From a virus (Duplodnaviria > Heunggongvirae > Uroviricota > Caudoviricetes), in the IMG/VR virus record IMGVR_UViG_2778261504_000013, positions 1 to 15,428 of that record: 15,428 nt of DNA. One strand, 5' to 3'. Every line of letters starts with the position of its first letter. The stretch's first letter is position 1. The position numbers were made by a program, and so were the translations under genes. Shown piece after piece: positions 2,575-14,668 of the stretch. The notes beneath the pieces are model-generated. The model saw only the letters and a program-made list of their open reading frames with translations. It did no database searches and had not been told where the DNA came from.

Positions 2575-3405
2575 TTAGTTCACATCATCACCAAAACTTG
2601 TCACATTCTGAAAAGCAATATCGGCCTTACGCTCTTCCTGGTGGCAAATGTCAACCAGAGAATCAAGAAACGGCTTCCAATTACGCGTCCATGTCCTGAC
2701 ATGTAGCTCGGGTATCCGCTTCAGTACAACTTTATATACTGTGGTAGACGGTACCGTGGAAAATCCATTTCCGCTGCAACGTTCGCAGATTTTAAACACT
2801 GGCACACCACGCTCGCTTGTGGCTTTGCGGTCCAGTACCTCTCCCTTTCCACCACAACGACACCTGGCACTTATCACTCCCTTCCCTTTACATACATCGC
2901 AAACGACTGGTACAACTTCCGTTACCTCTGTCCATTTCTCCCAGTCTGACGGTCGAACAGCACGGGAGCGACTGGCCCAATATGGTGCTTTACCCCATGG
3001 GTATGAAACCTTACGAATGACCTGCTTACGGGGTGTTAGTCCGGTACCACTGCAACTATGGCATGTTACGCTGGTGTCTGCCGATCGGGAATACTCAGCA
3101 AAAGCAAACTGCGCCAGTACCAGCATACACCAGCCAAATTCACCACCAGCTGCTTTACGCACATTCTTCGGTGCAATTTCCATCGCGTGACGCGCCAGCG
3201 CCTGGACTGCCATCTGCTCATCAGTCTTGCTGATACCGGCCTTCCCGAAGAAGGCCGCCAAGCCAAACCGCTCACGATTGCTGGTGGTACCAATAGCCGC
3301 CATAACATCGGTGCCTGTAAGACGTTCCGGAGAGGTTCCTTTCACATCGTCGCCGATATACATTCCCTGAGGACTGAAGTATTTTAGCGATGCCTCAAGC
3401 TTCAT
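2575..3405 (-). CDS. Late antiterminator Q-like protein with four DnaJ-type CxxCxGxG zinc-finger repeats
   Basis: CHSCSGTG, CDVCKGKG, CRCGGKG and CERCSGNG repeats; last gene of the cro-side operon (the lambda Q position); start overlaps the upstream stop (TAATG). The family assignment is from memory of Q proteins of the Qin/phage 82 type and is not search-verified. Confidence 0.7.
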   Translation of the reverse strand: MKLEASLKYFSPQGMYIGDDVKGTSPERLTGTDVMAAIGTTSNRERFGLAAFFGKAGISKTDEQMAVQALARHAMEIAPKNVRKAAGGEFGWCMLVLAQFAFAEYSRSADTSVTCHSCSGTGLTPRKQVIRKVSYPWGKAPYWASRSRAVRPSDWEKWTEVTEVVPVVCDVCKGKGVISARCRCGGKGEVLDRKATSERGVPVFKICERCSGNGFSTVPSTTVYKVVLKRIPELHVRTWTRNWKPFLDSLVDICHQEERKADIAFQNVTSFGDDVN

Positions 3406-4262
3406 TATTCACACTCCCCAACCAGATTAAGAATAACCGCCGCGCCATTGTCTTTCATATATTCGCCCTTTCCGCTTGCCAAAAACCAACGACACACCTC
3501 CACGGCTTCAGCCCGTGTCACCGGTTTGATGGTCATCAGCAATTTTTCAAGGTAGCGCTCGCGGTCATATACCGATTCGTGATGCTCAGAGTAACCATAC
3601 TCATCGCCCTGTTCTTTAGACGCAGTGTGGCGAACACTGTAGAGCCAGTCCCAGTAAACAAACTCACGAACTACGTCTGACAATGTATGAGGCTCTGGCA
3701 GTACATCACGATAGCCATCAACATATGCACGACGCTGATCATCAATTTCATTCATACGGATGCCATCAATTCTGCCCGCTGTCTTCTCGGCTGCAGTCCA
3801 GCCCCAGAGATGATCGTCGATAAATTTCTGGGAAGACTGGATCACTCGCTCGGCTTCCACATCTTCGAGTGCTGCTTCATAGCTACCAAACGTAGCCCTG
3901 ACTGATGTTGCTTTTTTGATATTCTCCCGGGCGATCCTGATTGCCTGTGCCGGGTTATCCATGCCGATGGTACCGAAAGCAATCTGGAAAGGATCACCAC
4001 CATTCGCCAGCAGATAACGCGAATAGCGTTCCTGGGCCTCTTTTGGGGAAATTTTAATTTTCACCAGCGCAGCCTCAGCAGCATCCAGATGTGCGGGTTC
4101 GTTCAGACGGATAACCTCCAGCACCCAAAGATAAGCATCAGTCTGCTTATGCCCGGTGATTCTCCGTTGCTCTGGCAGGGGCTTGATGTTTGCGAGGGCG
4201 GAGCTGTACGCTGCCGTCGGGATGGTGAATAGTGCTTTATGTTCGTTGTTATCAGTACGCAT
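3405..4262 (-). CDS. Hypothetical phage protein (285 aa), in the nin-like position between primase and Q
   Basis: Translationally coupled at both ends (TAATG overlaps at 4260-4264 and 3403-3407); no recognisable motif. Confidence 0.65.
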   Translation of the reverse strand: MRTDNNEHKALFTIPTAAYSSALANIKPLPEQRRITGHKQTDAYLWVLEVIRLNEPAHLDAAEAALVKIKISPKEAQERYSRYLLANGGDPFQIAFGTIGMDNPAQAIRIARENIKKATSVRATFGSYEAALEDVEAERVIQSSQKFIDDHLWGWTAAEKTAGRIDGIRMNEIDDQRRAYVDGYRDVLPEPHTLSDVVREFVYWDWLYSVRHTASKEQGDEYGYSEHHESVYDRERYLEKLLMTIKPVTRAEAVEVCRWFLASGKGEYMKDNGAAVILNLVGECE

Positions 4263-5230
4263 TACGCAACCGCCTTTTTCTTATGGAAAACCAGCTCTCG
4301 AACCTGATCACCGTTCATGAGCATATTGTTGAAATCATCGTGATCCGGCCAGTACACGCTCACGCGCTGCAGGTCATTCTTTGCCATCAGATTGGCATGA
4401 GCACATTCGCAAGCCGCAGCCAGCCCGGTGGCGCTGTTCTCGTCACGGTCGGCAAAAATAATCAGGTGCAGAACACCAGCTGGTACGCGGAACTTTTTCA
4501 TAAAGCCGCTGTTAATGGTTGCCCAAGTGTTCACGTTATAAATCTGGTGCGCTGACAGCGCTGTTTCGATGCCTTCGGCGATACCCAGAGTGCTAGCAAC
4601 AGGAAACATGCGGATAGCTACAGAACGAGCGTGATCCAAATAGTTATCTTCCTGCAGGGATTTGAGGCGCTTTGCACTGCTACCGATATCTGCTTTTTTA
4701 TCACCATCAAGCAGAGTCTGGTGCAGATAGCACAACTCCCCTTTATCGTCCGTAGCAAGTGAATAAAGAGACTGGAACACACTCCCGTTGTGTCTCTGCC
4801 TGGCATTGAACCGGATCGCCTCAGCAGGAAGACTGAATATTCCACGAGAATTAAGATACGCTGCGCCGGATGTACCACGCAGTGCCTCCAGTTTTGAAAA
4901 CTTGCTCAATACCCGTTTGCGTAAGCTGGTGGCGCTGCTGGTTACCGGGATTTTAACCCGTTGGTAATCATTACCGATCAGGCGGTCTATTTCGGTACAA
5001 ATCTCGTTAAATGGCTTCGCCTGTGTCAGGGTGACAAGTTTCATACCATCGCCACTACCACATACACAGATCCACGTTCCTGCACCGTCGCGGTCATCAA
5101 TTCGGAACTTGCCACGTGCACCGCATACCGGGCATTCACCCTTGAAGTGATTTTTTCCTGTTATCGGCGGCAAGCCGAAGTGCTCTAATATTTCAGGCCA
5201 GCGGCCTTTCGCTGCAGCTGCTGTTTTCAT
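4262..5230 (-). CDS. DNA primase with N-terminal zinc-binding domain and Toprim domain
   Basis: CPVCG ... WICVCGSG zinc-binding motif; Toprim signatures IAEGIETALS and IIFADRDEN (DxD); coupled to the helicase gene. Confidence 0.8.
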   Translation of the reverse strand: MKTAAAAKGRWPEILEHFGLPPITGKNHFKGECPVCGARGKFRIDDRDGAGTWICVCGSGDGMKLVTLTQAKPFNEICTEIDRLIGNDYQRVKIPVTSSATSLRKRVLSKFSKLEALRGTSGAAYLNSRGIFSLPAEAIRFNARQRHNGSVFQSLYSLATDDKGELCYLHQTLLDGDKKADIGSSAKRLKSLQEDNYLDHARSVAIRMFPVASTLGIAEGIETALSAHQIYNVNTWATINSGFMKKFRVPAGVLHLIIFADRDENSATGLAAACECAHANLMAKNDLQRVSVYWPDHDDFNNMLMNGDQVRELVFHKKKAVA

Positions 5231-5231
5231 C

Positions 5232-6890
5232 TTACTGACTCAAACTGTTTATATTTTTCTGGAGTTGTTGCTTTGCTTGCATGATGCGCCAAGCCTCAGT
5301 GCCTATTGGCATCTCGCTTCGCTCACCTCGTTCCTGAGACAGAGGAATCGTTGCCTGCAATTTTTCTATAGTTCTCTGCGTCCGCTGACGGCCTTTGGCA
5401 AACCGAATCAGCTTGTGTTTGATGTAGTTACTTACTTCTGGGCTTATTTCCATCGGGAAACTGCTCAACCCATCAGGCCATTCACCGAATTTCTCCCTGA
5501 AAGTGTGAGCACACCATCCATCACTGACTGGACGCCCCAGCGAAGCACGCTGGCGCTGATAAAATTTGATCTGACTCCACCAGGACTGTTTCTCTGTCTT
5601 CGTCGACTGATGCTGATTTTTACCCAGCTTATTAAGTTTGCGGCTAGTGTCAGTATCAACATCTTCACCTCGCAGCGGCTTGTGTCCACATTTAGGGCAA
5701 ACATAGACGCCAGCTGGCTTCATGTAGTGGCATTGAGGGCATTCATGTGGCAGTTTTTCGGCCCGTTCCTCAACTGCGCGGCGCGCGCTTTCCTCCATGC
5801 CGTCAGACTTACCGGGAAGATCGTCGTACTCGATTGAATCCGGATAACCCAAACGGTGCACGGTGCCGCTGTGATCGAAGATAAGGCAGGACTCTTTACC
5901 CGGTGCGGTGCGCAGCCCACGCCCGAGTGCCTGCAACCAGCGAATTTCGCTTTTTGTTGGCCTGGCGTAGATGATGCAACGAACGTCACTATCAAAGCCG
6001 GCCACCAGAACGCCCACACTAACGATGATTTTCGTTGCACCAGTTTCAAAGCGGTGAATGATGGTCTGGCGCTCATCTACCGGAGTGTCTGCGGTCATTA
6101 CCTCAGCGTTAACACCTGCGAGGTTAAACTGGATTGTCAGGTAATTGGCGTGGGCTACGTTGACGCAGAAAGCGATGGTAGGTAGATCCCGACCATTCTC
6201 CAGCCAGTTCTGTACGATGTCGCCCACCAGCGTAGAGCCGCACATGATTTCAGCCAGCTGTGTTTCGTTGTAATCGCGGCCGTACTCAAGCGAAGATGTG
6301 GTTTTAACACCTTTCAGATCCGGCTTAGTTGGCGCGTAAAATTCGTATTTACTCAGATCGCCACGCTGGATTAACTCGCCGATGGTGGTCGGCTTAATCA
6401 GTCGGTCATAGTATTTGCCCAGGAACGGAGAAAACGGAGTACCCGACAGGCCAATCACCTTTACGCCTTTGCCGCGCAGACGTTCGATATCCTTCAGGAT
6501 GCGTTTTTTACGCAGGTGCGCTTCGTCGATAATCAGCAGATCGATATTTTCAGGAAAAACACGACGAATAAGCGTGTCAGTGCTGGCAATCTGAATTTTC
6601 CGGTCCGGATCGTAGTTCGGGTGATCCGCCCAGATATAACCGATTTCATCTCCAGGTAAACCATACTGCACGAACCGATTAGCCGTCTGACCAATCAGGA
6701 TGGTGTACGGAACACAGAACAGAACACGCATACCACGGCTGACAAAACCAGCAACGATGAAGGCTGCCAGACCCGTTTTACCGCTACCTGTTGGCGAGTA
6801 AACCATGAAGGTGTCGTTTGCCTTCCAGTCACGGCGCAACATGTTTAGCGCTCGCTCCTGTGCAAAATTCGGCGTGATTGTCAGCTGCAT
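5232..6890 (-). CDS. Superfamily 2 (DEAH-type) DNA helicase, replication module
   Basis: Walker A SPTGSGKTG, DEAH box IIDEAH, motif III LSGTPF, motif VI QALGRGLR; C-terminal zinc ribbon CPQCH ... CPKCGH. Confidence 0.85.
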   Translation of the reverse strand: MQLTITPNFAQERALNMLRRDWKANDTFMVYSPTGSGKTGLAAFIVAGFVSRGMRVLFCVPYTILIGQTANRFVQYGLPGDEIGYIWADHPNYDPDRKIQIASTDTLIRRVFPENIDLLIIDEAHLRKKRILKDIERLRGKGVKVIGLSGTPFSPFLGKYYDRLIKPTTIGELIQRGDLSKYEFYAPTKPDLKGVKTTSSLEYGRDYNETQLAEIMCGSTLVGDIVQNWLENGRDLPTIAFCVNVAHANYLTIQFNLAGVNAEVMTADTPVDERQTIIHRFETGATKIIVSVGVLVAGFDSDVRCIIYARPTKSEIRWLQALGRGLRTAPGKESCLIFDHSGTVHRLGYPDSIEYDDLPGKSDGMEESARRAVEERAEKLPHECPQCHYMKPAGVYVCPKCGHKPLRGEDVDTDTSRKLNKLGKNQHQSTKTEKQSWWSQIKFYQRQRASLGRPVSDGWCAHTFREKFGEWPDGLSSFPMEISPEVSNYIKHKLIRFAKGRQRTQRTIEKLQATIPLSQERGERSEMPIGTEAWRIMQAKQQLQKNINSLSQ

Positions 6891-7619: not shown

Positions 7620-7913
7620 TCAGGAGCGCGATTGCGTTCCTGCCAGGGGCGGCTGAGTTGTATACCCCTGTAAAGCTCTGCCCTGATTTCTCACGAACAG
7701 GCGGAGCCTTGTGTTTGCTTCATGCCTTGCTCTGTTCTCCTTACGGAATGAAACAGGCTCAGCGTCAAAAGTGATTTCGTATACCTCCGCATATTTCAGG
7801 GCGACCTTCCGTCTCAGTGACGGAGGCAGCCCCTGTAACTGCTGCTGAATCCACTCTTTGTCTGCCTGGCAGTACCTAGATGGCATCTCTGTCTGAACGT
7901 AATTCTGGGACAT
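7620..7913 (-). CDS. Hypothetical early protein (97 aa) immediately downstream of cro
   Basis: ORF with GGAGGTGA upstream of ATG 7913; overlaps the cro 3' end by 38 nt; in the cII-like position but with no resemblance to lambda CII. Confidence 0.5.
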   Translation of the reverse strand: MSQNYVQTEMPSRYCQADKEWIQQQLQGLPPSLRRKVALKYAEVYEITFDAEPVSFRKENRARHEANTRLRLFVRNQGRALQGYTTQPPLAGTQSRS

Positions 7914-8163
7914 ACAAGCCCTTCACCTCCCCCGTGCGCGCTAAGCTTGGATGTGGAAAAAGCTCTGGTAGGTCTGGACGAAATTCATACGCTTGGATCT
8001 TTCCGTCTACAGCTGCAACCAATAACGGCACAAATTCTGGTGAAATCTTGTTCTTGCAGTTCAACCAATCGCAGACTGTTGACTGGGCCTTTCCGCATCG
8101 CTTGGCTAAGGCTTGCTGACTTCCAAGAATCTCAATAGCTTTCTCTATGGCTTTATGTTTCAT
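7876..8163 (-). CDS. cro: Cro-like HTH repressor (Cro/YdaS type)
   Basis: 95 aa, HTH SQQALAKRCGKAQSTVCDWLN; divergent from the cI-like gene; AGGAGA SD upstream of ATG 8163 (the track's upstream extension is less likely). Confidence 0.7.
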   Translation of the reverse strand: MKHKAIEKAIEILGSQQALAKRCGKAQSTVCDWLNCKNKISPEFVPLLVAAVDGKIQAYEFRPDLPELFPHPSLARTGEVKGLYVPELRSDRDAI

Positions 8164-8185
8164 AATCGCATCTCCTATTGAACGC

Positions 8186-8214
8186 ATAATAACAACAGGA
8201 AAAGCGATATTCAA
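8186..8214 (-). promoter_or_regulatory. Candidate PR-like sigma70 promoter for cro (TTGAAT-17-TATTAT on the minus strand)
   Basis: Read on the minus strand: -35 TTGAAT (8209-8214), 17-nt spacer, -10 TATTAT (8186-8191), about 25 nt upstream of the cro start. Confidence 0.5.
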
Positions 8215-8230
8215 CGTTAAACCTAGAATA

Positions 8231-8250
8231 TTTATCGGAAAGCCGATAAA
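8231..8250. promoter_or_regulatory. Operator: perfect 20-bp palindrome TTTATCGGAAAGCCGATAAA in the cro-cI intergenic region
   Basis: 8+4+8 inverted repeat seen directly; its 14-bp core ATCGGAAAGCCGAT matches two sites at the promoter downstream of cI (11/14 to the 9028-9041 site). Confidence 0.55.
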
Positions 8251-8282: not shown

Positions 8283-8975
8283 ATGACATTTTCAGAACGA
8301 CTTGATTTAGCTATGCGCAACGCAAAATTTACGCAAGGTAGGCTGGCCAAAGAAGTGGGTATGGCTCAGTCCAGTGTTAATCAACTACTTAACAAAGCCA
8401 ACGGTTCCAGAAAAACAGTCGAAATAGCAAAAGTTTTGGGCGTTAACCCGGAATGGCTCGCATCGGGTGTTGGCCCAATGGAAATCGTGACCTCTGCAGA
8501 CTCACACCAAATACGTAACATTTCTGAAGATTGGGTTACTGATTCGTATGTCGTGGATGTTTTAGACATCAGATATAGTTGCGGACCTGGTAGTTATAAC
8601 TCTGATTTTCCTGACATTGTCAGATCTATAGCTATAGAACCAGGATACGCATCAAGAGTTTTTGGCGGCAGACCAGCATCAGCAATCAAAGCAATAAACG
8701 CCCACGGCGACAGTATGAAAGGCACAATAGACCCTGAAGACTTGGTATTTGTAGATGTATCAGTTCGCACATTTAATGGTGATGGTATATACGCCTTTAC
8801 ATACTCTGGAACATCGCACATCAAAAGACTTCAAAAAATCAAAGATACTCTAACGGTGATATCTGACAACCCAGCTTACAAGGATTGGGCTATCGAACCG
8901 GAAGACTTCGAACAACTTCACATTGACGGAAAAGTAATTGTCAGTTGGCCTATGACACTACACCGTTTTGCATAA
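8283..8975 (+). CDS. cI: CI-type prophage repressor: N-terminal HTH plus C-terminal S24 (LexA-like) autopeptidase
   Basis: HTH QGRLAKEVGMAQSSVNQL; S24 catalytic Ser in AHGDSMKG and Lys in HIKRL; possible Cys-Gly cleavage site (YSCGPG); strong SD GGGGAGGA; divergent from cro. Confidence 0.85.
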   Translation: MTFSERLDLAMRNAKFTQGRLAKEVGMAQSSVNQLLNKANGSRKTVEIAKVLGVNPEWLASGVGPMEIVTSADSHQIRNISEDWVTDSYVVDVLDIRYSCGPGSYNSDFPDIVRSIAIEPGYASRVFGGRPASAIKAINAHGDSMKGTIDPEDLVFVDVSVRTFNGDGIYAFTYSGTSHIKRLQKIKDTLTVISDNPAYKDWAIEPEDFEQLHIDGKVIVSWPMTLHRFA

Positions 8976-8993
8976 GCAAAAATCATTTAACCC

Positions 8994-9018
8994 GCCCACT
9001 CTTAAGTGGGCTTTTTTT
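8994..9018 (+). terminator. Intrinsic terminator after cI
   Basis: GCCCACT-CTTA-AGTGGGC perfect stem-loop (8994-9011) followed by T7 (9012-9018). Confidence 0.7.
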
Positions 9019-9027
9019 GGAAGAAAA

Positions 9028-9069
9028 ATCGATAAACCGATTGACAGGTGAAATCGGTAAACCTATTAT
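9028..9069 (+). promoter_or_regulatory. PL-like early promoter (TTGACA-17-TATTAT) with two overlapping operator copies
   Basis: -35 TTGACA 9041-9046, 17-nt spacer, -10 TATTAT 9064-9069; operator-like 14-mers ATCGATAAACCGAT (9028-9041, abutting the -35) and ATCGGTAAACCTAT (9053-9066, over the spacer and -10). Confidence 0.6.
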
Positions 9070-9109
9070 CTTGACATAGGTATCGAACTCACCAAAGCAA
9101 TTATAGAGG

Positions 9110-9529
9110 ATGAGAAAAATGTCATCGTATATGGGGTTACCAACAAATCAGCACGATGCTCTTGAGAATATTCAGCTCTTAGTAGGGGCTGGTGCACTAC
9201 TGTATAGCAGCAATAACCCTGAGTTAATTGAACTTGCCAGCTCCATCCTGGCTGTAACTCAAAAATATAGCCTCACCGCGTCACGTTTATGCAAACAAAA
9301 TTTAGCTATTAATTCCCAGAATCGGATTCGCACCCAACGCGAAGCCTGCGGCTTAACAACCGCCGAACTCGCCAGGCTGCTCGATCTCGATGAAGAAATC
9401 ATCATCCAGTGGGAGAGCGGAGAGTATGAACCAACTATCAGTATGCTTATCCCTCTGGCTAATGTTTTTGGCTGTGACCCAATGTGGTTATTGACTGGTG
9501 CTTATAAACAAAATCAGGAGGAAGCATAA
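9110..9529 (+). CDS. XRE-family HTH protein (C-terminal HTH), first gene of the PL-like operon
   Basis: C-terminal HTH TQREACGLTTAELARLLDLDEEIIIQWESGEYEPT; the start may be ATG 9119, which has better SD spacing; N-terminal domain unknown. Confidence 0.65.
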   Translation: MRKMSSYMGLPTNQHDALENIQLLVGAGALLYSSNNPELIELASSILAVTQKYSLTASRLCKQNLAINSQNRIRTQREACGLTTAELARLLDLDEEIIIQWESGEYEPTISMLIPLANVFGCDPMWLLTGAYKQNQEEA

Positions 9530-9530
9530 G

Positions 9531-9722
9531 ATGAAAATGTTCAAAGGCCTTACCAACGAACCGGAGACAGTTTTTCATCACATTGCCGTACTGCTTGAAG
9601 CGGGGTTAATCATTTCGGCTTCCGGTGATGAAGAATGTGATGAACTTTCGGATGATATCTTTCTACTGGCACAACAATACGCCAGAAGCGCATGCGATGC
9701 ATTTAAGGAGCAAAGAACATGA
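9531..9722 (+). CDS. Small acidic hypothetical protein (63 aa)
   Basis: AGGAGG SD; acidic stretch SGDEECDELSDD; stop overlaps the next start (ATGA). Confidence 0.5.
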   Translation: MKMFKGLTNEPETVFHHIAVLLEAGLIISASGDEECDELSDDIFLLAQQYARSACDAFKEQRT

Positions 9723-9910
9723 AAACTCCATTAAATATTCTTGAGGAAGTGGCAGCACAAATAAAAGAGAATACATCAATGCTTGAATTTATATTTAAGA
9801 ATTCGCCCGACCAAGGAGAGACAGACGATTATTTATGCTGTCTCATTCGCTCCATGAATAAGACCTGTGAAATGGCTTACGAGTATATAGAAACACTACG
9901 CAACGAATAA
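9719..9910 (+). CDS. Small acidic hypothetical protein (63 aa)
   Basis: AAGGAG SD 8 nt upstream; translationally coupled to the preceding ORF. Confidence 0.5.
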   Translation: MKTPLNILEEVAAQIKENTSMLEFIFKNSPDQGETDDYLCCLIRSMNKTCEMAYEYIETLRNE

Positions 9911-10094
9911 AGAACTCTCAATAAAAAATCACACATAAAAACATGACGGCCTCTGGTCGGGGGTTTTCACAACCAGAAAATAATGGTGATGCATGAAAAA
10001 CAGAAGTGCTTATAAAACCGCATTATTAATGGCTAATGCAGGATACTGGTCAGTTGCAATACTGTTTCTCAGGAAAGCATACGGGAAATAACAA

Positions 10095-10454
10095 ATGACA
10101 CATGAACCCATTAATACATATCGTCGCCGTATAGCTGTTGCGGCACTCCATCGAATAAAACGTAAAACAGGTGTTAATCTGCTTATTGTTGACCTTCCTG
10201 ATGGGAACATTACGACCATAGAAATAACTGAACAGTTTATAAACCAGTTGCTGTTACGCTTCGAAGGTATTACCCGTGGCGAATTGGGCCGGGTGGAGGG
10301 TGAAACCGAAATCCACACTGCATACCAGAATGCTATCGGGATTAATCAACATACTGAATACCTGACTGAAACCGGAAAGTTAATTATAGACAACCTTTTT
10401 CAAGAGGTTATTGATTACGCGAAAGAAAAATATATCAGCGGAGGAATTAACTGA
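10095..10454 (+). CDS. Hypothetical protein (119 aa)
   Basis: ORF in the operon after a 184-bp gap; weak SD; stop overlaps the next start (TGATG). Confidence 0.55.
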   Translation: MTHEPINTYRRRIAVAALHRIKRKTGVNLLIVDLPDGNITTIEITEQFINQLLLRFEGITRGELGRVEGETEIHTAYQNAIGINQHTEYLTETGKLIIDNLFQEVIDYAKEKYISGGIN

Positions 10455-10669
10455 TGGCTAATTTATCCCCTGTATCTGTTGTGCACGAAAAAGTGCAGAT
10501 CGTTATGACAATTGAAAATGGCCAAGTCACAGGTGTCTGCAAAGTCCGCGATGGCGAGCTGATTGCCAGCATGGATACATTCATACGGCTGGCAGAAAGA
10601 GCGGGGTATCAGATAACAGCACCTGCTCAGGAGGAAACCGGTGGCATTAACAGCAACACGCATTCCTGA
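10454..10669 (+). CDS. Hypothetical small protein (71 aa), possible partner of the downstream toxin-like ORF
   Basis: Coupled to the upstream gene and overlaps the downstream ORF by 29 nt, the usual antitoxin-toxin geometry; no recognisable motif. Confidence 0.45.
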   Translation: MANLSPVSVVHEKVQIVMTIENGQVTGVCKVRDGELIASMDTFIRLAERAGYQITAPAQEETGGINSNTHS

Positions 10670-10862
10670 GTGGGTGCACCTGCAGGCGGTCCGTGTTCTC
10701 CGCCAGTTCAGAGCCAGACGAATTCATCCCTGTCGTATGCACGGCTCCGGAAACCTGAGTCTGAGGGTTAATCGCCGCTGGCGGCTGCTGTCCCGAGACG
10801 GCGGCCAGAACTGGGAAGTAATGAGCCATGAACGATACAGCAAAGTTAAGGACCGGAAATGA
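10641..10862 (+). CDS. Candidate RelE/HigB-superfamily toxin-like protein (73 aa, GTG start)
   Basis: AGGAGG 7 nt upstream of GTG 10641; C-terminal segment LSLRVNRRWRLLSRDGGQNWEVMSHERY resembles the RelE/HigB core (LRV ... EVMTHKEY). Shorter than typical family members, so it may be degenerate. Confidence 0.4.
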   Translation: MALTATRIPEWVHLQAVRVLRQFRARRIHPCRMHGSGNLSLRVNRRWRLLSRDGGQNWEVMSHERYSKVKDRK

Positions 10863-11485: not shown

Positions 11486-12235
11486 ATGAACATAGTAACG
11501 ATCAATAACAAACAGCTTCCGGCAGTCGAATATCGCGGTCAGCGTGTTGTGACGCTGGCAATGATTGATGAAGTCCACCAGCGCCCGGAAGGTACCGCCC
11601 GTGCTGCGTTTAACCGCAACCGTTCTCACTTTATCAAAGGGGTGGATTTTCTTGAAATGACTGCGGACGTAATACGTACGGAGTCACTTTCTGATGCCTT
11701 TGCCGCGCGAACTGCCAAAGGGATCATTCTTTTCGAGTCTGGTTACCTGATGTTGACGAAGCCTTTTAACGATGCTCTTGCATGGCAGGTTCAGCGCGAA
11801 CTGGTTAACAGCTATTTCCGAACTCACGCGCCGCTGACGGAAATGGAGATGATCGCTGCAATGGCCGCCGATGCCGTTCGCCAGCAGAAGCGCCTGAGTC
11901 ATGTTGAAGAGAAGATCGAAACGGTCACCAAAGCTGTGGAGAACATCAAACGCGGCACAATGCGCACCGGATATGTCGGTTACCGCCAGGTGGTAGCCAA
12001 AAGCGGAATGAGTGACGCCAAGTGTCGGAATCTGGTCAACGCCTACCACATCCCTACCGACACGCACGAATTTATGACTCCGGACGGTCTGTTGTCTCGC
12101 AGGGCTGTCGTCGAGCTTGAGACATTTATGGCGGCGTTCCACCAAATGATGTCAGAGGCTGAACCACGCGGCACACGCTGGTATCACCCGAAGATGGGGC
12201 TTTTTCAGGTAATCGGATGGGAGGATAAAGCATGA
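11486..12235 (+). CDS. ORF6N-domain protein (antirepressor / Rha-like regulator family)
   Basis: N-terminal LAMIDEVHQRPEGTARAAFNRNRSHFIKGVDFLEMT matches the ORF6N pattern (..kRN..rF..g.dF..lt); GAGGTGGA SD; stop overlaps the next start (ATGA). Confidence 0.65.
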   Translation: MNIVTINNKQLPAVEYRGQRVVTLAMIDEVHQRPEGTARAAFNRNRSHFIKGVDFLEMTADVIRTESLSDAFAARTAKGIILFESGYLMLTKPFNDALAWQVQRELVNSYFRTHAPLTEMEMIAAMAADAVRQQKRLSHVEEKIETVTKAVENIKRGTMRTGYVGYRQVVAKSGMSDAKCRNLVNAYHIPTDTHEFMTPDGLLSRRAVVELETFMAAFHQMMSEAEPRGTRWYHPKMGLFQVIGWEDKA

Positions 12236-12801
12236 TCATCCAGTCAAAACTTATTCGCGCCGCTCTGGTGTGCGCTGCTAAAAACGACGTTCGTTATTAC
12301 CTGAACGGTCTTCACATCACGCCAAAACATATTGAGGCAACCAATGGTTTCGTAGCACTGCGCATGACTCACGGCATCCGGACGAAGAAAAACATCATTG
12401 TCCAGTTCGAAGGTGGCGTCCCGGCCAAAGCCGAAACGACAGAGCTGATTTTTAGTAAAGAGCCGATCGCTGTTCATCGCGACCAGTTTCAGCGCCGGCT
12501 GTCCATTACCGGCATTAAATTGGTGGACGGTTGTTTTCCGGATTTGGAACGCATCATTCCGAAAAAATTTGACCTCTGTACACACCCGGTGATCCAGGCG
12601 GGTTACCTGAGTTATCCAGAGAAGATGTTTGGTCGTGAGCGTAAATTTATTCCCGTCCAGTTACGTTCCTCCGGTGACGGGCAAGCGGTCAGAATTCAGT
12701 TTGATTCCATCATCAACTCAATGTATGGCAATCCTGAATTTGTTGTGATGCCTTGTCGTGATCATGGCGATTTCAATGTGGCTCAGGAGCATCCGGAATG
12801 A
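12232..12801 (+). CDS. Truncated DNA polymerase III beta-clamp (DnaN) homologue, domain II plus partial domain III
   Basis: Three collinear matches to E. coli DnaN as I recall it: NDVRYYLNGL vs QDVRYYLNGM; IKLVDGCFPDLERIIPKKFD vs SKLVDGRFPDYRRVLPKNPD; EFVVMPCRD vs AYVVMPMRL. Only 189 aa, lacking domain I. Confidence 0.7.
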   Translation: MIIQSKLIRAALVCAAKNDVRYYLNGLHITPKHIEATNGFVALRMTHGIRTKKNIIVQFEGGVPAKAETTELIFSKEPIAVHRDQFQRRLSITGIKLVDGCFPDLERIIPKKFDLCTHPVIQAGYLSYPEKMFGRERKFIPVQLRSSGDGQAVRIQFDSIINSMYGNPEFVVMPCRDHGDFNVAQEHPE

Positions 12802-13325: not shown

Positions 13326-13535
13326 ATGGGGCTGGATTGCGTGCCTATATCAACCTACTGCCGCGACGCGGGAGAAACGGTTGATGCCGTTAACAAACGG
13401 ATACAAAGAGGAATATGGAAAGAAGGGGTTCATGTATTAAAAGTCGATGGAGTTAAAGAACGCTGGGTCGACTTAATAGAGGTTTCAAAATGGGCAAGAA
13501 AGAACAAGGATTATTATCTCTGCCAAGAGGAGTAA
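13326..13535 (+). CDS. xis: Excisionase-like protein
   Basis: 69-aa ORF immediately upstream of and overlapping int by 46 nt, as in lambda xis-int; GAGGTGA SD; small basic winged-helix-like sequence. Confidence 0.6.
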   Translation: MGLDCVPISTYCRDAGETVDAVNKRIQRGIWKEGVHVLKVDGVKERWVDLIEVSKWARKNKDYYLCQEE

Positions 13536-14668
13536 CTATTCGTAAGCATAAAACTGCTTCAACACTAGTTATCACTTTCACATATAAAGGGGTTCTTTGC
13601 AGGGAGCCCCTGTCTCGGCTTGAGGCAAATACACGTGGTATTAAATATGCTGAGCGCCTGCTAGGGGAGATACAAAATCAGATCGCCAGTGGAACGTTTG
13701 AATATGCGAAATATTTCCCCAGTTCCAAAAAACTGGAGTTATTCGGTATAGTAAAGAAAACCAAAAATATTAAGTCCTATCTTGATGAATACCTGAAAAT
13801 TTGCATGAACCGCAATCTGTCGCCGTCAACCATTGGCGGTTACGAAAAATGTATATCAGCACTATCAGAGCTACATAAACTACATGTAACAGAATTGACG
13901 CCTGCGGTACTAAAAAATTGGATAGCCAGCCGAAAAACTAAGCTGAAAACAATCAGGAATAACCTGTCATTTCTGCGCAGCGCCATTGATGAGGCTGTAA
14001 CTGATGGCCTGTTGACTATTAACCCGGTAACTCTTGTCAGCGCCAGCCGGTATCACGTGGTCGACAGTAAACCGAACGCCGACGATTACGAAGTTGATCC
14101 GTTTGCGCCTGCGGAAACCAGTGCCATATATCAGCACTGCAAGTATCAGGAATGGCAGAATCTGTTCCGCTTCGCCTTCAATACAGGGCTACGCAGCTCT
14201 GAGCTATGCGCATTACGTTGGACCGATATCGACTTTATAGGTAATACAGCGCACATACAGGCGGCCAGTGTCGTAGGGGTACTTAAAGGCACCAAGACAA
14301 AAGCCGGTACCCGTAAGGTGGAGCTGAACAGTGAGGCGCTGGCGGCCCTGCAGGCGCAGAAGCAATACACCTTTATGAAAAGTGAGTTCATATTCAGCGA
14401 TCCGAAAACGGGAGATCCCTGGACGAACGCCGACGCTATCCGTAAAAAAGCATGGGTGCCGACCCTAAAAAAAGCTGGTGTGCGCTACCGTAACCCGTAC
14501 CAGACGCGCCACACATTCGCCACCAGACACATTAGCCAGGGTGTAAACCTTTTCTGGCTTGCCGGGCAGATGGGGCATAAGGGGCCGGAAATGCTGTTCC
14601 GCAATTACGGTAAATACCTGGCTGAATACGACGGGAAAACCGCAATGGAAGCTGGAATGAAGAAGTGA
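13490..14668 (+). CDS. int: Tyrosine recombinase (phage integrase)
   Basis: Catalytic signature TGLRSSEL (Arg), TRHTFATRH (His-x-x-Arg), HKGPEMLFRNYGKY (His and Tyr nucleophile); N-terminal arm-binding-like region; last gene of the operon. Confidence 0.9.
   Translation: MGKKEQGLLSLPRGVTIRKHKTASTLVITFTYKGVLCREPLSRLEANTRGIKYAERLLGEIQNQIASGTFEYAKYFPSSKKLELFGIVKKTKNIKSYLDEYLKICMNRNLSPSTIGGYEKCISALSELHKLHVTELTPAVLKNWIASRKTKLKTIRNNLSFLRSAIDEAVTDGLLTINPVTLVSASRYHVVDSKPNADDYEVDPFAPAETSAIYQHCKYQEWQNLFRFAFNTGLRSSELCALRWTDIDFIGNTAHIQAASVVGVLKGTKTKAGTRKVELNSEALAALQAQKQYTFMKSEFIFSDPKTGDPWTNADAIRKKAWVPTLKKAGVRYRNPYQTRHTFATRHISQGVNLFWLAGQMGHKGPEMLFRNYGKYLAEYDGKTAMEAGMKK

What the first reader, a model, noticed from the sequence alone, without database searches (positions are those of the whole stretch)
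9110..9910. Operon-proximal module: C-terminal-HTH protein followed by two coupled small acidic proteins
These are the first genes transcribed from the strong PL-like promoter, the position occupied by N and anti-host functions in lambda. The HTH protein has HigA-like architecture (N-terminal domain plus C-terminal XRE HTH) but no adjacent toxin. The two 63-aa acidic proteins are translationally coupled and could be DNA-mimic or anti-defense factors (anti-restriction or nuclease inhibitors).
Basis: inference. Interest (0 to 1): 0.5.

Follow-up and report, generated by a model that had tools for sequence, protein, structure and literature searches.

The report
Hairpin-protein trio heading prophage early operon
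The first three genes of this E. coli-type prophage's repressor-controlled early operon encode small two-helix hairpin modules, one fused to an unusually acidic helix-turn-helix domain and two free-standing; the family is uncharacterised and has no measured function, and it looks more like a protein-protein regulatory module than an antitoxin or DNA mimic.

Summary
Three tightly packed genes (9119-9529, 9531-9722, 9719-9910, + strand) follow a near-consensus promoter. Operators of the neighbouring cI-like repressor overlap that promoter.

- ORF2 is a free-standing paralogue of ORF1's N-terminal domain.
- ORF3 is a free-standing copy of a second hairpin type. In other prophages that type sits in the same N-terminal slot of the same HTH protein.
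- AlphaFold models both ORF1's N-terminal domain and ORF3 as two-helix hairpins.

An HMM search of 1.84 billion proteins found 54 relatives. Each is either stand-alone (about 60-70 aa) or, where a partner domain was detected, fused to 1-3 XRE HTH domains. Named members come from six genera of Enterobacterales.

Across 91 related loci, ORF1's hairpin type tracks the cI type, while the downstream small-protein sets assort freely. ORF1's HTH is conserved but acidic, with D-E-E at the start of its recognition helix.

The HigA reading fails its membership tests. The DNA-mimic reading has no support from fold or family searches. An anti-host role is not excluded.

Best guess (confidence about 0.35): the hairpins bundle with each other, SinI/SinR- or AimX/AimC-like, to set the activity of the HTH protein. 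This is a new variant of a known kind, of moderate interest.

The parts
8994..9018 (+). Intrinsic terminator ending the cI-like repressor gene (8283-8975); it separates the cI transcript from the early-left operon
   Evidence: 7-bp stem with 5 G-C pairs, followed by a T7 run
9028..9066 (+). Two operator-like 14-mers, ATCGATAAACCGAT (9028-9041) and ATCGGTAAACCTAT (9053-9066), overlapping the -35 and -10 hexamers. They are of the same type as ATCGGAAAGCCGAT at 8234-8247 in the cI/cro intergenic region
   Evidence: Binding by cI is inferred, not shown
9041..9069 (+). Sigma-70 promoter TTGACA-17-TATTAT (PL-like)
   Evidence: 11 of 12 consensus positions. Each immunity type in related loci has its own promoter and operators at the same place
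9119..9529 (+). ORF1, 136 aa (139 aa if started at 9110): N-terminal helical hairpin plus C-terminal XRE HTH
9119..9298 (+). ORF1 N-terminal hairpin domain (HP2 type, residues 1 to about 60: short N-terminal strand motif, helix 11-29, loop, then a helix from 34). It is the immunity-linked variable part
   Evidence: AF2 pLDDT about 86-92 for residues 11-50; phrog_4587 hit at residues 3-58, E 2.6e-7; aligns end-to-end with ORF2; its type is 1:1 with the cI type
9326..9490 (+). ORF1 XRE HTH domain. It is conserved across immunity types but acidic, and its recognition helix begins D-E-E
   Evidence: In 337 of 344 matching E. coli genomes the DNA match starts only at about 9326
9531..9722 (+). ORF2, 63 aa: free-standing HP2-type hairpin, a paralogue of ORF1's N-terminal domain
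   Evidence: phrog_4587, E 3e-33; phmmer 19-25 bits, collinear with the N-terminal domains; family search
9719..9910 (+). ORF3, 63 aa: free-standing HP3-type hairpin, overlapping ORF2 as ATGA
   Evidence: phrog_6882; AF2 model with helices 4-28 and 34-62, pLDDT 92.6; 27 bits to the N-terminal domain of the HTH protein P0095; dN/dS 0.06-0.13

Best explanation
The block is a regulatory module built from one kind of small protein-interaction unit, a two-helix hairpin of about 60 residues, present three times. One copy forms the N-terminal domain of an XRE-type HTH protein (ORF1). Two copies are free-standing and translationally coupled (ORF2 of the same sequence family, ORF3 of a second family).

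All three are made together as soon as the cI-controlled early-left promoter fires. I propose that the hairpins pack against each other into mixed helical bundles. ORF2 and ORF3 would then set, or compete for, the oligomeric state and partner choice of ORF1's hairpin, and so the activity of its HTH domain. SinI does this for SinR, and AimX for AimC.

Shown: the gene structure, promoter and operators, the paralogy, the hairpin fold prediction, the exclusive association with HTH domains, the synteny and the purifying selection.

Inferred: hairpin-hairpin binding, any effect on ORF1, and what ORF1's HTH binds.
For: 1. ORF2 aligns residue 2-60 to residue 2-60 with ORF1's N-terminal domain (19-21 bits) and with another N-terminal-domain allele (25 bits). 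ORF3 aligns end-to-end with the N-terminal domain of P0095, a 223-aa protein carrying the same HTH module (27 bits).

2. AF2 models ORF1 as a hairpin followed by a five-helix HTH (pLDDT 81) and ORF3 as a hairpin (pLDDT 92.6).

3. The hairpin helices are 36-47% strongly hydrophobic over 240-260 degree arcs. That is more than a lone hairpin can bury.

4. The HP2 profile search of 1.84 billion representatives returned 54 proteins. Most are stand-alone proteins of about 60-70 aa. In the 11 larger ones where I detected a partner domain, it is 1-3 XRE HTH domains. A domain found only free or attached to one partner domain points to a function tied to that partner.

5. In 89 of 91 related loci the HTH gene is followed directly by at least one free hairpin gene. 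These loci are highly redundant E. coli prophages.

6. The HP2-HP3 pair, with its ATGA overlap, persists at 42-55% identity in distant loci. This suggests stoichiometric co-production.

7. There is precedent for small helical proteins that mimic or bind a repressor's oligomerisation domain: SinI/SinR and phage AimX/AimC (bioRxiv 10.1101/2025.11.23.689978).
Against: - No interaction was computed or measured. No multimer prediction was available.
- ORF1, ORF2 and ORF3 are co-transcribed and coupled, which is unusual for an antagonist and its target. It fits a fixed hetero-complex better than a switchable antirepressor.
- The downstream small-protein sets assort freely with ORF1's hairpin type, so there is no sign of cognate pairing.
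- Distant loci L091-L093 have only free hairpins and no hairpin-HTH fusion, so the hairpins can function without a fused HTH in cis.
- HP2 and HP3 cannot be linked by sequence.
- ORF1's HTH has net charge -5 where P22 c2 has +6, and D-E-E where c2 has S-N-V. I saw no sequence shared across immunity types upstream of ORF1 (by eye). Whether ORF1 binds DNA at all is therefore doubtful.
Confidence: 0.35

Rival explanations
1. The hairpins are autonomous early anti-host or anti-defence inhibitors that bind proteins rather than mimic DNA. The HTH fused to the first copy would be an accessory regulatory domain, as in Acr-Aca loci and Acr-Aca fusion proteins. Lambda cIII, Kil, Gam and Ral occupy comparable PL-operon positions.
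For: - Earliest position in the operon, with small size and acidity.
- Strong diversification into many types, variable copy number (1-5 small helical ORFs) and mosaic assortment.
- The hairpins persist in loci that have no hairpin-HTH fusion.
- An acidic, partly conserved loop and helix-2 start: D32, E38, G40 and D41 of alignment A7.
- That small diverse acr genes sit beside a conserved HTH aca gene is my own knowledge, not tested here.
Against: - PADLOC, Pfam and NCBIfam give no hit for ORF2 or ORF3. No anti-defence library was available.
- Foldseek finds only generic hairpins.
- An Aca-like autorepressor should recognise its own promoter. Here the HTH is conserved while the promoter and operator region differs completely between immunity types, and the recognition helix is acidic.
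- Known anti-defence arrays usually hold unrelated proteins, not paralogues of the regulator's own domain.
Confidence: 0.25
2. ORF1 is an immunity-specific modulator of the switch that acts on the cognate cI repressor or Cro by protein-protein contact. TP901-1 MOR, an HTH protein that binds the CI N-terminal domain, works this way. ORF1's variable hairpin would recognise the matching cI.
For: - The hairpin type of ORF1 is 1:1 with the cI type in all loci where cI was recognised (N0-cI0, N1-cI1, N2-cI2, N3-cI3).
- The mosaic junction falls at the hairpin/HTH boundary.
- The acidic HTH is unlikely to be a canonical operator binder.
- MOR precedent: PMC11149083 and PMC7250872.
Against: - The linkage is equally explained by adjacency. 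Only about 50 nt separate the operators from the hairpin coding sequence, and there is no conserved sequence in which recombination could occur.
- No interaction was tested.
- This reading does not explain the free hairpins, or why their types are independent of immunity.
Confidence: 0.12
3. ORF2 and ORF3 are DNA mimics, that is, anti-restriction or nuclease inhibitors that act through phosphate-like charge arrays.
For: pI 4.45 and net charge -7 and -6 over 63 aa, with acidic clusters at the hairpin tip: SGDEECDELSDD in ORF2 and PDQGETDD in ORF3.
Against: - The charge density of about -0.1 per residue is modest. As far as I recall, classical mimics such as T7 Ocr and ArdA are far more acidic (own knowledge, not computed here).
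- Similar acidity recurs across the family, including fused hairpin domains and whole HTH proteins, so it does not single out ORF2 and ORF3.
- No known mimic appears among the 50 listed Foldseek PDB matches, all of which have E>0.1.
- About half of each helix is hydrophobic, which is unlike a solvent-exposed charge array.
Confidence: 0.05
4. ORF1 is a HigA- or MqsA-type antitoxin. Its toxin could be the ParE-like gene at 10641-10862.
For: The architecture of an N-terminal domain plus a C-terminal XRE HTH resembles some HigA and MqsA proteins. A ParE-like toxin-domain gene lies in the same operon (70.8 bits).
Against: - No HigA model is hit. The MqsA and HipB-type models reach 25-26 bits against cutoffs of 62-72, on the HTH only.
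- The ParE-like gene is 1.1 kb away. It overlaps the end of a different 71-aa gene, which is the more likely antitoxin.
- The ParE-like gene is absent from 56 of 91 loci that retain the HTH gene.
Confidence: 0.03
5. ORF2 and ORF3 are non-functional leftovers of recombination between HTH-gene alleles, that is, orphaned N-terminal cassettes.
For: - The region is highly mosaic.
- Databases hold hybrid and frameshifted forms: P0131 is an ORF3(N-terminal)/ORF2(C-terminal) hybrid, and P0127, P0128, P0130 and P0136 are frameshift variants.
Against: - Both genes have their own Shine-Dalgarno sequences and start codons.
- All 25 full-length copies in related loci are intact, and ORF3 dN/dS is 0.06-0.13.
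- Many stand-alone family members are diverged beyond 50% identity.
- The HP2-HP3 pair is conserved at 42-55% identity.
Confidence: 0.03

Closest known systems
SinR/SinI (Bacillus subtilis), with paralogues SlrR/SlrA
   Same: An XRE-type HTH regulator whose helical oligomerisation domain has a small free-standing paralogue encoded next to it. The small protein forms a mixed helical bundle with the regulator (mechanism as summarised in bioRxiv 10.1101/2025.11.23.689978).
   Different: The domain order is reversed: the hairpin is N-terminal here. There is no Pfam SinI match. The genes are co-transcribed and coupled rather than separately regulated. There are two free hairpins from two sequence families. 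The HTH is acidic. No interaction has been shown.
Arbitrium AimC repressor / AimX small antirepressor (Bacillus phages)
   Same: A phage lysis-lysogeny module in which a small helical protein binds the repressor's oligomerisation domain and blocks its assembly.
   Different: AimX was not reported there as a paralogue of AimC's domain. The system is Gram-positive and peptide-signal controlled. There is no sequence relationship.
TP901-1 / phi13 CI-MOR
   Same: A small HTH protein, encoded at the start of the early lytic operon, that works by contacting the repressor rather than only by binding DNA (PMC11149083, PMC7250872).
   Different: MOR has no hairpin domain or free hairpin paralogues. No ORF1-cI contact has been tested.
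Anti-CRISPR (Acr) loci with Aca HTH regulators and Acr-Aca fusion proteins (own knowledge)
   Same: Small, diverse, often acidic early proteins adjacent to, or fused with, a conserved HTH domain behind a strong early promoter.
   Different: The gene order differs: here the HTH gene comes first. The small proteins are paralogues of the HTH protein's own domain. The promoter differs between immunity types while the HTH stays constant. No Acr or Aca similarity was tested or found.
HigA / MqsA antitoxins
   Same: An N-terminal partner-binding domain plus a C-terminal XRE HTH.
   Different: There is no adjacent toxin and no family-model match. The N-terminal fold here is a hairpin, not MqsA's zinc-binding domain.
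P22 c2 / 434 repressor N-terminal domains
   Same: ORF1's HTH superposes on the P22 c2 DNA-binding domain at 0.8 A rmsd over 63 columns with 32% identity, and matches it by sequence at E 5e-6.
   Different: Net charge is -5 against +6 over the aligned span. D-E-E replaces S-N-V at the start of the recognition helix. The HTH is C-terminal, and there is no S24 peptidase domain.

Membership tests
XRE / Cro-CI type HTH proteins (Pfam HTH_3) | Match to the HTH_3 profile above the gathering score | tested here: met
   residues 73-127, 45 bits against a cutoff of 23
XRE / Cro-CI type HTH proteins (Pfam HTH_3) | Five-helix HTH fold | tested here: met
   TM-score (target-normalised) 0.90 to P22 c2
XRE / Cro-CI type HTH proteins (Pfam HTH_3) | Sequence-specific operator binding through a polar or basic recognition helix | tested here: inconclusive
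   The recognition helix begins D-E-E, and the domain has net charge -5 where P22 c2 has +6. I saw no shared upstream sequence across immunity types (by eye). Binding itself cannot be tested here
HigA-type antitoxin | Match to a HigA family model | tested here: not met
   no HigA model among the NCBIfam hits at E<=0.1; only HTH-level matches to MqsA, HipB-type and DicA models, all far below their cutoffs
HigA-type antitoxin | Adjacent, usually overlapping, RelE/ParE-superfamily toxin gene | tested here: not met
   The neighbours are cI (beyond a terminator and promoter) and ORF2. The ParE-like gene at 10641-10862 overlaps another gene and is absent from 56 of 91 loci
DNA-mimic proteins (Ocr, ArdA, Ugi and similar) | Fold or family similarity to a known mimic | tested here: not met
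   no significant family hit; Foldseek PDB matches all have E>0.1 and are generic hairpins
DNA-mimic proteins (Ocr, ArdA, Ugi and similar) | Very high, surface-arrayed negative charge | tested here: inconclusive
   Net -7 and -6 over 63 aa, clustered at the hairpin tip, but moderate and recurring across the family including fused domains. No surface electrostatics were computed
DNA-mimic proteins (Ocr, ArdA, Ugi and similar) | Binds and inhibits a DNA-binding enzyme | not testable with these tools
   Needs biochemistry
SinI/SinR-type regulator-antagonist pair | The small protein is homologous to the regulator's oligomerisation domain | tested here: met
   ORF2 against ORF1's N-terminal domain: 19-21 bits, collinear over 59 residues. 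ORF1 residues 3-58 hit ORF2's PHROG at E 2.6e-7. For ORF3 this holds only against the N-terminal domain of another allele, P0095
SinI/SinR-type regulator-antagonist pair | Sequence membership (Pfam SinI domain), with the HTH N-terminal and the helical hook C-terminal | tested here: not met
   No SinI hit; the domain order is reversed
SinI/SinR-type regulator-antagonist pair | The heteromeric bundle displaces the regulator homo-oligomer | not testable with these tools
   No multimer prediction or experiment was available
PHROG families 4587 (ORF2), 6882 (ORF3) and 4836 (ORF1) | Profile match | tested here: met
   E 3e-33, 3e-40 and 1e-51. Families 4587 and 6882 are labelled 'unknown function'. 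Family 4836 is labelled 'CII-like regulator'; I found no experimental basis for that label, and the deposited phage records carry only generic or putative names
Secondary-channel factors (GreA, DksA, TraR including lambda Orf73) | Acid-tipped coiled coil plus a globular or zinc-finger anchoring domain; family profile match | tested here: not met
   No Pfam hit at E<=1. None appears among the 50 listed Foldseek matches. There is no anchoring domain and no C4 zinc-finger pattern

The most novel reading that the evidence does not exclude
The hairpins form a diversifying recognition code among co-resident lambdoid prophages. Each phage's HTH protein carries an immunity-linked hairpin. The free hairpins, whose types match the N-terminal domains of other immunity types (ORF3 matches the N1-type domain of P0095), act as decoys. 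They would capture or disable the hairpin-HTH proteins of rival prophages, or of the phage itself, when the early operon fires. That would be a protein-level cross-talk or interference layer on top of classical repressor immunity.
Probability: 0.08. Interest if true: 0.75.

Novelty: new variant of a known kind. Interest (0 to 1): 0.45.

Why it matters
- Prevalence: the module heads the early-left operon of a widespread group of E. coli prophages. 344 of 5,426 complete E. coli genomes match part of the 8900-10100 region. The group includes Stx1- and Stx2-converting phages and the Stx2e phage phiP27.
- Annotation gap: all three proteins carry only generic or putative labels, such as 'hypothetical' or 'HTH domain-containing'.
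- If the hairpins modulate an early HTH protein, they add an unstudied control layer to the induction switch of toxin-converting phages.
- If they are anti-host inhibitors, they form a compact and diversifying inhibitor family.
- Either way, the fusion/fission pattern (hairpin alone, or hairpin plus 1-3 HTH domains) gives a clear experimental handle.

Tried and rejected
- BLASTP of ORF1's N-terminal domain against ORF2, and of ORF2 against ORF3, found nothing. phmmer and the PHROG profile were needed to see the ORF1-ORF2 relationship.
- hhalign (0.2% probability) and iterative HMM searches could not link the HP2 and HP3 families, or the extra small helical ORFs of distant loci. I therefore do not claim that ORF2 and ORF3 are homologous to each other.
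- Foldseek of the ORF1 model against PDB and BFVD matched through the HTH, with no informative match to the hairpin. Foldseek of ORF3 against PDB returned generic hairpins.
- Profile searches of PDB sequences returned only de novo designed helical repeats for HP2 and nothing significant for HP3.
- NCBIfam and PADLOC gave nothing for ORF2 or ORF3. Rfam gave no hit in the window.
- The 184-nt gap after ORF3 has no significant RNA structure (z = -0.25) and only a 4-bp conserved stem.
- Two scans of the species-representative genome collection found no relatives.
- The search for related loci rejected the diverse hairpin alignment because no stretch was conserved enough to search with.
- Literature searches found nothing on this family.
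- Gre/DksA/TraR-like and lambda cIII-like readings were considered. Neither has profile support, and the Gre/DksA/TraR reading has no fold support either.

Full report
**Context.** The window is a lambdoid prophage of the phi467/phiP27 type. Megablast links 9327-10700 to Escherichia phage phi467 at 88.7% identity. 344 of 5,426 complete E. coli genomes match part of 8900-10100, but only 7 match the whole stretch. The layout resembles lambda with strands swapped:
- On the minus strand: a Q-type antiterminator (2575-3405), a primase (4262-5230), a helicase (5232-6890) and a YdaS-type Cro (7876-8214).
- On the plus strand: a cI-like S24 repressor (8283-8975), then the finding, then an ORF6N-domain gene and an integrase (13490-14668).

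**Observation.**
- A terminator (8994-9011) ends cI. It is followed by TTGACA-17-TATTAT at 9041-9069, which matches 11 of 12 consensus positions.
- Two 14-mers overlap the promoter hexamers: ATCGATAAACCGAT and ATCGGTAAACCTAT. A related palindrome, ATCGGAAAGCCGAT, lies between cI and cro. That cI represses this promoter is therefore a reasonable inference.
- Related prophages of other immunity types each have their own promoter and repeats at the same place.
- ORF1 most likely starts at 9119, not 9110. ORF2 starts 1 nt after ORF1's stop. ORF3 overlaps ORF2 as ATGA. Both have Shine-Dalgarno sequences.
- Pfam places HTH_3 at ORF1 residues 73-127. ORF2 and ORF3 have pI 4.45.

**The three proteins share one kind of module.**
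- ORF1 residues 3-58 hit phrog_4587, the family of ORF2, at E 2.6e-7.
- ORF2 aligns collinearly over 59 residues with ORF1's N-terminal domain, at 27% identity and 19-21 bits. It also aligns with a second N-terminal-domain allele at 25 bits.
- ORF3 aligns end-to-end (27 bits, 37% identity) with the N-terminal domain of P0095. P0095 is a 223-aa protein that carries the same HTH module in the same genomic slot.
- AlphaFold models ORF1 as a short N-terminal strand motif, helix 11-29, a loop, a long helix from residue 34, and then a five-helix HTH (pLDDT 81). It models ORF3 as helices 4-28 and 34-62 (pLDDT 92.6).
- ORF2's family (HP2) and ORF3's family (HP3) cannot be linked by sequence. I treat them as two families with the same predicted fold, the same slot and the same fusion partner.

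**The family.**
- ORF1's relatives keep a nearly invariant HTH but carry at least eight unrelated-looking N-terminal types, and either one or two tandem HTH domains. The window's single-HTH form looks like an HTH1/HTH2 hybrid.
- A full HMMER pass over 1.84 billion representatives with an HP2 profile returned only 54 proteins. Most are stand-alone proteins of about 60-70 aa. In the 11 larger ones where I detected a partner domain, it is 1-3 XRE HTH domains.
- Named members come from Escherichia, Salmonella, Klebsiella, Kluyvera, Enterobacter and Serratia. All are labelled 'hypothetical' or 'HTH domain-containing'. None is in the species-representative genome set.

**Synteny.**
- In 91 loci the order is cro(-) | cI | [hairpin-HTH] | free hairpin(s) | downstream genes. 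A free hairpin gene follows the HTH gene in 89 loci. These loci are highly redundant.
- ORF1's hairpin type is 1:1 with the cI type. The downstream sets (ORF2+ORF3, or a single 66-68-aa HP2 protein of two kinds) assort freely.
- The DNA mosaic junction falls at the hairpin/HTH boundary, at about window position 9326.
- More distant loci hold 3-5 small helical ORFs after cI, sometimes with no HTH fusion at all. They still keep the HP2-HP3 pair with its ATGA overlap at 42-55% identity.
- ORF3 is under purifying selection, with dN/dS 0.06-0.13. ORF2 has too few substitutions to judge, but it is always intact.

**The HTH is odd.**
- It superposes on the P22 c2 DNA-binding domain at 0.8 A rmsd.
- Over the aligned span it has net charge -5, where c2 has +6. 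The window's own cI and Cro HTH regions are +4 and +3.
- It has D-E-E where c2 has S-N-V at the start of the recognition helix.
- The motif DLDEE[IV]I[IL]QWE is kept in more than 100 relatives. More distant family members have ordinary recognition helices, such as VTAQAVYLWE.
- Canonical operator binding by ORF1 is therefore doubtful. A protein-binding role is conceivable, as for MOR of TP901-1 or MBF1, a bridging-factor HTH protein that appears among the PDB sequence matches (the role is my own knowledge).

**Mechanism.**
- The hairpin helices are 36-47% strongly hydrophobic over 240-260 degree arcs. A lone hairpin cannot bury that surface and must bind something.
- The domain occurs only free or attached to HTH domains, and free copies sit directly behind the fused copy. 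The most economical reading is therefore hairpin-hairpin bundling that sets the oligomeric state or partner choice of the HTH protein. This works like SinI/SinR or AimX/AimC, but the proteins are not members of those families.
- Several points weaken this reading: the three genes are co-expressed in a coupled way, cognate pairing is absent, and some distant loci have only free hairpins. I put it at about 0.35.
- The main rival is that the hairpins are autonomous early inhibitors of host or defence proteins, with an accessory HTH. It remains at about 0.25.

- HigA: there is no family-model match and no adjacent toxin. The ParE-like gene at 10641-10862 pairs with another small gene and is absent from 56 of 91 loci.
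- DNA mimic: the acidity is moderate and recurs across the family. No fold or family similarity to known mimics was found.

**Verdict.** The block is an uncharacterised hairpin/HTH fusion-fission family restricted to prophages of Enterobacterales. I class it as a new variant of a known kind (a regulator plus small paralogous modulators), of moderate interest. Its function is untested.

Noticed in passing
window 10641-10862 (+), with 10454-10669 (+): A 73-aa ORF matches Pfam ParE_like (PF24732) at E 1e-19, 70.8 bits against a cutoff of 24.4. It overlaps by 29 nt the end of a 71-aa acidic ORF (phrog_340, with a weak 'anti-repressor' PHROG hit). This is a possible toxin-antitoxin pair inside the early-left operon. 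It is present in 35 of 91 related loci.
   Followed up: partly
window 8213-8247 and 9028-9066: Operator family ATCGG-N4-CCGAT: two exact pattern matches overlapping the PL-like promoter, plus a palindromic copy and a degenerate copy between cI and cro. Other immunity types have unrelated repeats at the same positions (L001, L002, L005, L008, L049).
   Followed up: partly
ORF1 relatives P0001-P0120; window 9440-9529: Most database relatives are 213-244 aa with two tandem HTH domains (recognition helices DLDEEIIIQWE and HTYSDPINDWE). Salmonella forms have up to three. The window's single-HTH form reads as an HTH1 start joined to an HTH2 end (PLANVFGCDP|MWLLTG), which suggests a deletion between the repeats, or a duplication in the reverse direction.
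   Followed up: partly
proteins P0127, P0128, P0130, P0131, P0136: Databases hold frameshifted ORF2 and ORF3 variants and a 39-aa hybrid, ORF3(N-terminal)-ORF2(C-terminal), joined at an EE motif. Some genomes therefore carry decayed or recombined copies.
   Followed up: no
window 9911-10094; L003 3961-4074: The gap of about 184-200 nt after the last hairpin gene is conserved in blocks across loci. It contains a 4-bp conserved stem (CGGC/GCCG-type) followed by a G-rich then T-rich run. In one lineage it holds a 37-aa ORF with its own GGAGG, which is not conserved in the window. The RNA fold is not significant (z = -0.25).
   Followed up: partly
window 12232-12801 (+): A 189-aa ORF gives a weak, sub-threshold Pfam hit to the central domain of the DNA polymerase III beta clamp (E 0.0047, 17.6 bits against a cutoff of 27). 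It might be a clamp-like phage protein.
   Followed up: no
window 11486-12235 (+): A 249-aa ORF with an N-terminal ORF6N domain (E 2e-12), as found in KilA/Ant-type antirepressor-like proteins, lies in the same early-left operon.
   Followed up: no
window 2575-3405 (-) and 9070-9120: The phage has a Q-type antiterminator (Pfam Antiterm, E 3e-52). No N-like gene occupies the first PL position; the hairpin-HTH gene sits there instead.
   Followed up: no
loci L091-L094 (about 3700-5050): Distant relatives carry 3-5 consecutive small ORFs (60-87 aa) that look helical by eye between cI and the conserved 119-aa gene. Several overlap as ATGA. Most are unlinked by sequence to HP2 or HP3, with only 9-13-bit pairwise similarities.
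   Followed up: partly
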